Of a stretch of DNA of 64,000 bases, positions 58,627 to 60,011 are shown piece by piece. Under the pieces are notes generated by a model. That model was not told where the DNA came from and searched no databases. It worked only from the letters and a program-made list of their open reading frames with translations. The position numbers were made by a program, and so were the translations under genes. Within the stretch, counting starts at the first letter, position 1; each line of letters begins with the position of its first letter. Source of the stretch: Escherichia coli (GTDB lineage Bacteria > Pseudomonadota > Gammaproteobacteria > Enterobacterales > Enterobacteriaceae); NCBI RefSeq assembly GCF_003334355.1, contig NZ_QOWP01000017.1; one strand, given 5' to 3'.

Positions 58627-60011
58627 ATGAGTCACATCACAACGGAAGATCCAGCAACTTTACGCCTGCCCTTTAAAGAGAAACTCTCTTACGGTATTGG
58701 CGACCTGGCCTCTAACATCCTGCTGGATATCGGTACGCTTTATCTTTTGAAGTTTTATACCGACGTTCTGGGGCTGCCAGGCACCTATGGCGGCATTATC
58801 TTTTTGATTTCAAAATTCTTTACTGCGTTTACCGATATGGGTACCGGCATTATGTTGGATTCCCGACGCAAGATCGGTCCAAAAGGTAAGTTCCGTCCTT
58901 TTATTCTGTATTCGTCATTCCCGGTCACCTTACTGGCGATCGCCAACTTTGTCGGCACACCGTTTGATGTCACCGGTAAAACGGTGATGGCCACTATTCT
59001 GTTTATGCTTTACGGACTGTTTTTCAGCATGATGAACTGCTCCTACGGCGCAATGGTTCCCGCTATCACCAAAAACCCCAACGAACGCGCCTCACTGGCG
59101 GCATGGCGTCAGGGCGGCGCTACGCTGGGCCTGCTGCTGTGCACGGTGGGATTCGTGCCAGTTATGAATCTTATCGAAGGTAATCAGCAACTTGGCTATA
59201 TCTTCGCCGCCACGCTGTTTTCACTGTTTGGCCTGCTGTTTATGTGGATCTGCTACTCGGGCGTGAAAGAGCGTTATGTCGAAACCCAGCCTGCTAATCC
59301 GGCGCAAAAGCCGGGCCTGCTGCAATCTTTCCGCGCAATTGCGGGTAACCGCCCGCTGTTCATTCTGTGCATTGCCAACCTCTGCACTTTAGGGGCGTTT
59401 AACGTCAAGCTCGCCATCCAGGTCTATTACACCCAGTACGTGCTTAACGATCCCATCCTTTGTCGTATATGGGATTTTTCAGCATGGGCTGTATTTTCAT
59501 CGGCGTATTCCTGATGCCTGCCTCAGTCAGACGTTTTGGCAAGAAGAAAGTTTATATCGGCGGCCTGCTGATTTGGGTGCTGGGCGATCTGCTCAACTAT
59601 TTCTTCGGCGGCGGTTCGGTCAGCTTCGTGGCGTTCTCCTGCCTGGCGTTCTTTGGCTCAGCGTTTGTTAACAGCCTGAACTGGGCGCTGGTTTCCGACA
59701 CCGTCGAGTACGGCGAGTGGCGCACCGGCGTGCGTTCGGAAGGAACGGTCTACACCGGTTTTACCTTCTTTCGCAAAGTGTCTCAGGCGCTGGCTGGTTT
59801 CTTCCCCGGCTGGATGCTGACGCAAATTGGCTATGTGCCGAACGTCGCACAGGCTGACCACACCATTGAAGGGTTACGCCAGTTGATCTTCATCTACCCA
59901 AGCGCACTGGCGGTAGTCACCATTGTGGCGATGGGTTGCTTCTACAGCCTGAACGAGAAGATGTATGTCCGCATTGTGGAAGAGATAGAAGCCCGTAAAC
60001 GCACGGCGTAA
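58627..60011 (+). pseudogene. yihP: GPH-family transporter YihP, disrupted by a -1 frameshift near 59459..59461
   Basis: Track ORFs 58594..59514 and 59460..60011 are in different frames; alignment with paralog YihO (NDINLLSWMGFFSMGC) shows reading shifts at ccc atc ctt t-g tcg where a 4-T run is expected. Confidence 0.6.

What the first reader, a model, noticed from the sequence alone, without database searches (positions are those of the whole stretch)
59440..59520. Sulfoquinovose-cluster transporter yihP carries a -1 frameshift in a T-run
Seen: the reading frame changes at about 59459..59461 (ctttg where the paralog alignment predicts cttttg), splitting the gene into 58594..59514 and 59460..60011. 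Inference: this is either real pseudogenisation or a homopolymer sequencing error.
Basis: partly seen in the sequence, partly recalled or inferred. Interest (0 to 1): 0.4.

Follow-up and report, generated by a model that had tools for sequence, protein, structure and literature searches.

The report
Real yihP frameshift pseudogene, yihO also broken
One of two transporter genes in the E. coli cluster for eating the plant sulfo-sugar sulfoquinovose has truly lost one base (a G, not a T) in this strain's lineage, and the neighbouring importer gene carries a stop codon, so this is ordinary gene decay and not a sequencing error.

Summary
yihP (58627..60011, +) is split into 58594/58627..59514 and 59460..60011. 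The detail is wrong. MG1655 and 3873 other complete E. coli genomes read ATC CTG TTG TCG here, and the window reads ATC CTT TGT CG. The lost base is the G of Leu278 (CTG), and the TTT run is a result of the deletion. A homopolymer miscall therefore does not fit. The same allele is in strain PSS-12, where RefSeq annotates yihP as 'frameshifted', in one draft assembly, and in 8 assemblies of public sequencing runs. The window has no indel against PSS-12 over 44.4 kb. Four of the run assemblies carry both lesions and are identical to the window. The other six carriers have only the yihP deletion, so yihP broke first and yihO later. All enzyme genes of the cluster are intact. I predict no growth on sulfoquinovose. 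Broken yihP or yihO genes are seen elsewhere in E. coli and Shigella, and about 28% of E. coli lack these genes altogether. This is an ordinary, lineage-specific pseudogene of low interest.

The parts
58627..60011 (+). yihP pseudogene, a GPH-family MFS transporter and the presumed DHPS exporter of the sulfo-EMP cluster. It is 1385 nt here and 1386 nt in MG1655.
   Evidence: 99.9% identical to MG1655 yihP with one gap. The same allele is annotated 'frameshifted' in PSS-12. The intact MG1655 product scores 537 bits on TIGR00792.
59459..59460 (+). Site of the 1-bp deletion. The G of codon Leu278 (CTG) was lost between T59459 and T59460, which turns CTGTTG into CTTTG.
   Evidence: Alignment of the window, PSS-12 and MG1655. 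Difference list. Only 1 of 3874 complete genomes shares the allele.
58627..59514 (+). N-terminal fragment ORF. It has residues 1-278 of YihP and then 17 out-of-frame residues (CRIWDFSAWAVFSSAYS), ending at the premature TGA at 59512..59514. It covers GPH profile positions 1-263 of 437.
   Evidence: This exact 295-aa product is on 10 public contigs.
59460..60011 (+). C-terminal fragment ORF (TTG 59460; possible ATG starts at 59469 and 59484). It is equivalent to YihP residues about 279-461 and GPH profile positions 267-437. No good Shine-Dalgarno sequence lies upstream.
60054..61457 (+). yihO pseudogene (sulfoquinovose importer). It is full length but interrupted by an in-frame stop.
   Evidence: One search gives ORFs 60048..60956 and 60975..61457 in the same frame. 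One search finds 1 internal stop. PSS-12 and MG1655 have intact yihO.
60954..60956 (+). Nonsense codon TAA in yihO. It arose as AAA to TAA at 60954 (K301*) and truncates the protein just after the eighth predicted hydrophobic segment.
   Evidence: The exact 300-aa product is on 4 Logan contigs that also carry the yihP deletion. No complete RefSeq E. coli genome is identical over this gene.
50367..58581 (.). The rest of the sulfo-EMP cluster, all with intact ORFs: csqR/yihW 50367..51152 (-), yihV 51186..52082 (-), yihU 52250..53146 (+), yihT 53170..54048 (+), yihS 54065..55306 (+, G358S relative to K-12), yihR 55444..56346 (+), yihQ 56545..58581 (+).
   Evidence: PSS-12 annotation transferred to the window and translated.
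61525..62217 (+). ompL porin gene, intact. It is the last gene of the cassette, downstream of yihP and yihO.

Best explanation
yihP in this strain is a genuine, inherited pseudogene. An ancestor of a small E. coli clone lost the G of codon Leu278 (CTG). That clone includes the window strain, PSS-12 from Ecuador, one draft genome and 8 sequenced isolates or samples. Translation now runs out of frame for 17 codons and stops at 59512. The product keeps the N-terminal domain plus helix VII of a 12-helix GPH/MFS transporter and lacks helices VIII-XII, so it cannot form a transport pathway (inferred). Within this clone, a sub-lineage that includes the window strain then acquired a nonsense mutation (K301*) in the adjacent paralog yihO, the sulfoquinovose importer. 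Both inner-membrane transporters of the cassette are therefore knocked out while all catabolic enzymes remain intact. The predicted phenotype is no growth on sulfoquinovose, inferred from the K-12 delta-yihO phenotype. The most economical reading is relaxed selection and stepwise decay of a dispensable pathway. That would be the point-mutation counterpart of the widespread 'short cassette', which has lost yihOPQRS entirely.
For: Shown:
- There is a one-base gap against MG1655 at 59459/60, and the missing base is G.
- ORFs are split as described.
- The allele is identical in PSS-12, where RefSeq flags the gene as a frameshifted pseudogene.
- The exact 295-aa frameshift product is on 10 contigs from NCBI and Logan.
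- Logan contigs from ERR4578542 and SRR3823860 (4 runs in all) are 100% identical to window 55346..62252 and include both lesions. PSS-12, NRWB01000046, ERR10677920 and SRR24680064 carry the deletion only.
- The clade has internal SNP diversity (54852, 56742, 58343), so the allele has been transmitted.
- The window has 0 gaps and 9 mismatches against PSS-12 over 44,386 bases.
- Every other gene between 19.6 and 64 kb is intact; the single TGA in fdoG is the selenocysteine codon.
- The N fragment covers TIGR00792 positions 1-263 and the C fragment covers 267-437.
- The hydrophobic segment 277-295, which aligns with the start of MelB helix VIII, is replaced by the out-of-frame tail.

From the literature:
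- YihO is the SQ importer, and the delta-yihO mutant fails to grow on SQ (PMC6278857).
- YihP is presumed to export DHPS but is uncharacterised.
- A frameshifted yihP is already noted in S. flexneri.
- A short cassette lacking yihOPQRS is common (PMC12608037), which fits 3892 of 5426 genomes having yihP.
Against: - I could not inspect any raw reads.
- Logan contigs are automatic assemblies, and I have no metadata on them. Some runs could be re-sequencing of the same isolate.
- Loss of function is inferred from topology and was not measured.
- YihP's own role has never been tested experimentally, so the phenotypic cost of losing it alone is unknown.
- The excess of protein-altering changes in the cluster within the clade is too small to be significant. 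The count is 4 non-synonymous or nonsense to 1 synonymous inside the cluster, and 1 to 3 outside.
Confidence: 0.93

Rival explanations
1. This is a sequencing or assembly artefact, a homopolymer-length miscall in a T-run, and the real genome has an intact yihP.
For: The derived sequence does contain TTT. I have no read-level data.
Against: - The ancestral sequence is CTGTTG, so the missing base is a G flanked by T's and not one T of a run.
- The site is not a Dcm (CCWGG) motif (direct reading).
- The identical allele appears in 10 contigs from different projects and accession series: AP027697, NRWB01, and ERR and SRR runs.
- There are zero indels against PSS-12 in 44.4 kb.
- No other broken gene in the stretch is due to an indel.
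Confidence: 0.02
2. The gene still yields some functional transporter. One route is low-level -1 ribosomal slippage, for example P-site slippage on the T5 run at 59475..59479, which lies inside the 59448..59514 rescue window. The other route is a 'split permease': the C-terminal half is translated from ATG 59484 or 59469 and associates with the N-terminal half, as has been shown for artificially split LacY (my own knowledge).
For: A T5 run lies in the interval where a -1 shift would restore the frame. Both halves keep full-length ORFs with intact GPH profile matches. A weak GGGA lies 9 nt upstream of ATG 59484.
Against: - There is no canonical X XXY YYZ heptamer in the rescue window.
- The frameshift is not conserved; 1 of 3874 genomes has it. 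Programmed frameshifts are conserved.
- Any rescued protein would carry about 6 wrong residues at the start of helix VIII.
- No convincing Shine-Dalgarno sequence precedes the internal starts, whereas the true starts have GGGAG and AAGGAG.
- The later nonsense hit in yihO suggests the transport function is not under selection.
Confidence: 0.04
3. The two transporter knock-outs are adaptive and were selected, for example to stop uptake of a toxic sulfonated or glycosidic substrate or to avoid futile expression. On this view they are not neutral decay.
For: - Two independent hits landed in adjacent paralogous transporters in a nested order while all enzymes stayed intact.
- Other truncated yihO and yihP products are seen in other E. 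coli, and an IS5 insertion in yihO is seen in strain 2017.10.01CC.
- Whole-block loss of yihOPQRS is common.
Against: - Nothing distinguishes selection from relaxed constraint with this little divergence.
- The allele is rare, 1 of 3874 complete genomes.
- Non-synonymous changes also accumulate in the enzymes yihS and yihQ within the clade, which fits decay of the whole pathway.
Confidence: 0.1

Closest known systems
yihP (b3877) of E. coli K-12 MG1655. It is a GPH:cation symporter of the sulfo-EMP (sulfoglycolysis) cassette ompL-yihOPQRSTUVW and the presumed DHPS exporter.
   Same: Same locus and synteny (yihQ-yihP-yihO-ompL), 99.9% nucleotide identity, same start and stop.
   Different: One base (G of Leu278) is missing, so the frame is lost after residue 278. 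There is one substitution, A96S.
yihP pseudogene of E. coli PSS-12 (NZ_AP027697.1, AABK13_RS13615, 'frameshifted')
   Same: Exactly the same deletion allele and 100% identity over the gene.
   Different: PSS-12 still has an intact yihO and lacks the P2-like prophage next to cpxP. It differs from the window by 9 SNPs in 44.4 kb.
Frameshifted yihP of Shigella flexneri 2a (GCF_000006925.2) and the 'short' yihTUVW cassette of many E. coli, such as Nissle 1917
   Same: These are other natural losses of the transporter part of the sulfoquinovose cassette.
   Different: They are independent events. The Shigella lesion was not compared here, and the short cassette is a block deletion of yihOPQRS and not a point lesion.
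MelB melibiose permease (PDB 4M64), the structural prototype of the GPH family
   Same: Alignable over residues 16-450 at E = 4e-35. It serves here to place the lesion at the start of helix VIII.
   Different: Different substrate. It is only a distant homologue and not an ortholog (215 bits against the 456-bit cut-off of the MelB equivalog model).

Membership tests
GPH:cation symporter family (TIGR00792) | Profile match above the curated cut-off (231 bits) | tested here: met
   Intact MG1655 YihP scores 537 bits. The window's N fragment scores 316 bits over profile positions 1-263, and the C fragment scores 206 bits over 267-437.
GPH:cation symporter family (TIGR00792) | A single uninterrupted polypeptide spanning all 12 transmembrane helices | tested here: not met
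   The frame is lost after residue 278 and a stop follows at 59512. The hydrophobic segment 277-295 and everything after it are lost from the N-terminal product.
yihP ortholog of the E. coli sulfo-EMP cassette | Position between yihQ and yihO-ompL, and near-identity to K-12 yihP | tested here: met
   Synteny and 99.9% identity.
Genuine (inherited) pseudogene | Reading frame disrupted relative to intact orthologs | tested here: met
   3873 of 3874 complete genomes have the extra G. MG1655 encodes 461 aa.
Genuine (inherited) pseudogene | The lesion is reproducible in independent sequence data and shared by relatives | tested here: met
   10 contigs carry it: PSS-12, GCA_003293365.1 and 8 Logan runs. 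Other SNPs differ among them.
Genuine (inherited) pseudogene | Loss of function (no transport, no growth on SQ) | not testable with these tools
   This needs growth and transport assays. It is inferred from the topology and from the delta-yihO phenotype in K-12.
Homopolymer sequencing error | The true sequence has a homopolymer whose length was miscalled | tested here: not met
   The reference state is CTGTTG and the lost base is G. There are 0 other indels in 44.4 kb.
Programmed -1 ribosomal frameshift | Canonical slippery heptamer in the overlap, and conservation of the frameshift among orthologs | tested here: not met
   No X XXY YYZ heptamer in 59448..59514, only a T5 run. The shifted arrangement is present in 1 of 3874 genomes.

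The most novel reading that the evidence does not exclude
The nested, two-step inactivation of both paralogous inner-membrane transporters (yihP first, then yihO), with all catabolic enzymes intact, reflects selection against sulfoquinovose/SQ-glyceride uptake or DHPS export in this human-gut clone. Alternatively, the two retained halves still work as a split or slippage-rescued permease. On either reading this would not be neutral decay.
Probability: 0.08. Interest if true: 0.35.

Novelty: already known. Interest (0 to 1): 0.1.

Why it matters
It matters little beyond annotation. It settles that the yihP break in this genome is real and should be annotated as a pseudogene, as RefSeq already does for the sister strain PSS-12. 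It also shows that yihO should be flagged as a pseudogene. The practical consequence is a prediction that this strain, and the 4 sequenced samples sharing its haplotype, cannot grow on sulfoquinovose although they carry a 'long' yih cassette. Presence or absence calls of the cassette therefore over-estimate sulfoglycolytic capacity in gut E. coli surveys. The clone offers natural yihP-only and yihP+yihO mutants, which could help test the still-uncharacterised role of YihP.

Tried and rejected
1. Homopolymer error: rejected. The ancestral site has no T-run, the allele recurs in 10 assemblies, and the assembly has no other indels.
2. Programmed frameshift: rejected. There is no canonical heptamer in the rescue window, and the arrangement is not conserved.
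3. Search for the source genome among 5426 complete RefSeq E. coli genomes: none is identical over yihO. The nearest is PSS-12, which lacks the prophage and the yihO stop. The source strain remains unnamed.
4. L011 (SRR10330952) looked at first like a yihO-K301* allele in a yihP-intact background. The contig simply ends at 60953, one base before the variable site, and carries the wild-type G in yihP. It says nothing about K301*, and may only hint at a mixed sample.
5. Test for relaxed selection from SNP counts in the clade: 4 protein-altering to 1 synonymous in the cluster, against 1 to 3 outside it. This is too few events to be significant.
6. Promoter and terminator scan of 58300..62400: promoter-like sites are at chance level, and there is no + strand terminator between yihP and yihO. 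It gives no information on polarity.

Full report
**Observation.**

The window region 56.5-62.3 kb reads, on the + strand, yihQ (56545..58581), yihP, yihO and ompL (61525..62217). The ORF list shows yihP split into 58594..59514 (306 aa from an upstream GTG; 295 aa from the annotated ATG at 58627) and 59460..60011 (183 aa).

Megablast of 58560..60040 against 5426 complete E. coli genomes found the gene in 3892 of them. All top hits are annotated 'yihP: MFS transporter'. Every hit listed spans 1482 bases except one, strain PSS-12, which spans 1481 bases at 100% identity.

**What the lesion is.**

A base-by-base comparison and an alignment show that MG1655 reads ...GAT CCC ATC CTG TTG TCG TAT ATG... 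The window and PSS-12 read ...ATC CT-T TGT CGT ATA TGG... The lost base is the G of Leu278 (CTG), which lay between T59459 and T59460. It is not a shortened TTTT run. The paralog yihO has TTA TTG at the equivalent codons.

After Leu278, which is still encoded by CTT, the protein continues with 17 wrong residues (CRIWDFSAWAVFSSAYS) and stops at 59512..59514.

**Real or artefact.**

Several results point the same way.

- The ancestral site is not a homopolymer, and it is not a Dcm site.
- RefSeq annotates the identical allele in PSS-12 as a pseudogene, 'frameshifted'.
- The window is not PSS-12.
  - Its first 19.6 kb is a P2-like prophage inserted between fieF and cpxP, which PSS-12 lacks.
  - The two differ by 9 substitutions over the shared 44,386 bases, with zero gaps.
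- The exact 295-aa frameshift product is on record on 10 contigs: PSS-12, the draft assembly GCA_003293365.1 (NRWB01000046), and 8 Logan assemblies of ENA/SRA runs.
- These contigs differ from one another at other positions (54852, 56742, 58343, 60954), so they are not copies of one sequence. The allele has been inherited within a diversifying clone.
- Every other gene between 19.6 and 64 kb translates without interruption, apart from the selenocysteine TGA of fdoG and a stop in yihO. The assembly is therefore not frameshift-prone.

A 71-base probe across the site is matched exactly by only 1 of 3874 complete genomes. The allele is rare and specific to this lineage.

**The neighbouring gene.**

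yihO (60054..61457) is interrupted by an in-frame TAA at 60954..60956. The change is AAA to TAA, K301*. MG1655 and PSS-12 have AAA. No complete RefSeq E. coli genome is identical over the gene.

The exact 300-aa truncated product is on record on five Logan contigs, so the stop is natural. Four are 5-10 kb contigs. The two of these that were read, from ERR4578542 and SRR3823860, are 100% identical to the window over 6.2-6.9 kb and carry the yihP deletion as well. The fifth, from SRR10330952, merely ends one base before the variable site and has a wild-type yihP, so it is uninformative.

PSS-12, NRWB01000046, ERR10677920 and SRR24680064 have the yihP deletion with an intact yihO. The order of events is therefore yihP first and yihO later, in a sub-lineage that includes the window strain.

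**Consequences (inferred).**

The intact proteins are GPH:cation symporters. TIGR00792 scores are 537 and 529 bits against a cut-off of 231. They align with MelB over their whole length.

The yihP N fragment covers profile positions 1-263 of 437, and the C fragment covers 267-437. The break removes the hydrophobic segment 277-295, which aligns with the start of MelB helix VIII. YihO is cut just after the same segment. Neither truncated product can form the two-domain MFS transport path.

According to the literature:

- YihO is the sulfoquinovose importer, and a delta-yihO mutant does not grow on SQ (PMC6278857).
- YihP is presumed to export DHPS but has never been characterised (bioRxiv 10.1101/2021.11.10.468170).

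All enzyme genes (yihQ, R, S, T, U, V) and the regulator csqR are intact. The prediction is a strain with a 'long' cassette that nevertheless cannot use sulfoquinovose.

**Alternatives.**

A -1 shift anywhere in 59448..59514 would restore the frame. That interval has no canonical X XXY YYZ heptamer, only a T5 run. The arrangement is not conserved.

The internal ATG codons at 59469 and 59484 lack a convincing Shine-Dalgarno sequence, unlike the true starts of yihP and yihO. Residual function by slippage or as a split permease is possible in principle but unsupported.

Whether the losses are neutral or selected cannot be decided. Within the clade, the cluster shows four protein-altering changes (yihS L263Q, yihS G358S, yihQ T600I, yihO K301*) and one synonymous change. 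Outside the cluster the count is one protein-altering to three synonymous. This is suggestive of relaxed constraint but far from significant.

**Comparison with what is known.**

- A frameshifted yihP has been noted in Shigella flexneri.
- About 28% of complete E. coli genomes lack yihP and yihO altogether. This matches the published 'short' yihTUVW cassette (PMC12608037).
- Other truncated yihO and yihP products, and an IS5 insertion in yihO, turn up in other strains.
- The exact allele is already annotated as a pseudogene in a public record.

The finding is therefore real but ordinary. Its only added value is the corrected nature of the lesion and the second hit in yihO.

**Verdict.**

Interest is 0.1.

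Noticed in passing
window 60954..60956 (yihO, 60054..61457, +): There is an in-frame nonsense codon (AAA to TAA, K301*) in the sulfoquinovose importer gene yihO, next to the reported yihP frameshift. It is absent from PSS-12 and MG1655. It is present, together with the yihP deletion, in 4 Logan run assemblies.
   Followed up: yes
window 1..19614: This is a P2-like (Peduovirus) prophage, about 96% identical to Escherichia phage P2 and Salmonella phage MET_P1_103_31. It is inserted between fieF and cpxP and is cut by the window start. It is absent at this site in the otherwise near-identical strain PSS-12, and present at the same site in many other E. coli.
   Followed up: partly
window 55136 (yihS codon 358) and 54852 (codon 263): The sulfoquinovose isomerase YihS carries G358S in the window. 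MG1655 and PSS-12 have G, and the S variant is on 49 public contigs. The sister strain PSS-12 instead has L263Q. The functional effect is unknown.
   Followed up: partly
window 58560..61480, compared with 5426 complete E. coli genomes: Only about 72% of complete E. coli genomes (3892 of 5426) contain yihP and yihO at all. This is consistent with the published 'short' yihTUVW cassette. One strain, 2017.10.01CC (NZ_AP027800.1), has an IS5 insertion inside yihO, and several other truncated yihO and yihP products exist in public data. Loss of these transporters is therefore recurrent.
   Followed up: partly
L011 (Logan SRR10330952 contig 24346), equal to window 59038..60953: This contig has a wild-type yihP (G present) and ends exactly one base before the yihO K301 variable site. 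That is what a de Bruijn graph branch would give if both alleles were present in the sample. The sample metadata were not available.
   Followed up: no
window 60012..60053 (yihP-yihO spacer): A GC-rich hairpin (ACGCCCTGCGGGGCGT) lies directly after the triple stop TAATAATAA of yihP and before the yihO Shine-Dalgarno sequence AAGGAG. On the + strand it has no T tail, so it is not an obvious terminator. It scores as terminator-like only on the - strand.
   Followed up: no
window 22412..22499, 31285..31511, 45765..45832, 62223..62262: Short, mutually similar (about 85-97%) inverted and direct repeats of about 35-40 nt lie in intergenic regions. They look like REP/BIME-type elements, and the rhaA-rhaD spacer holds a tandem set.
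   Followed up: no
window 39999..43049 (fdoG): A single in-frame TGA in the formate dehydrogenase-O alpha subunit gene is the known selenocysteine codon and not a lesion. PGAP labels this gene fdnG in PSS-12.
   Followed up: no
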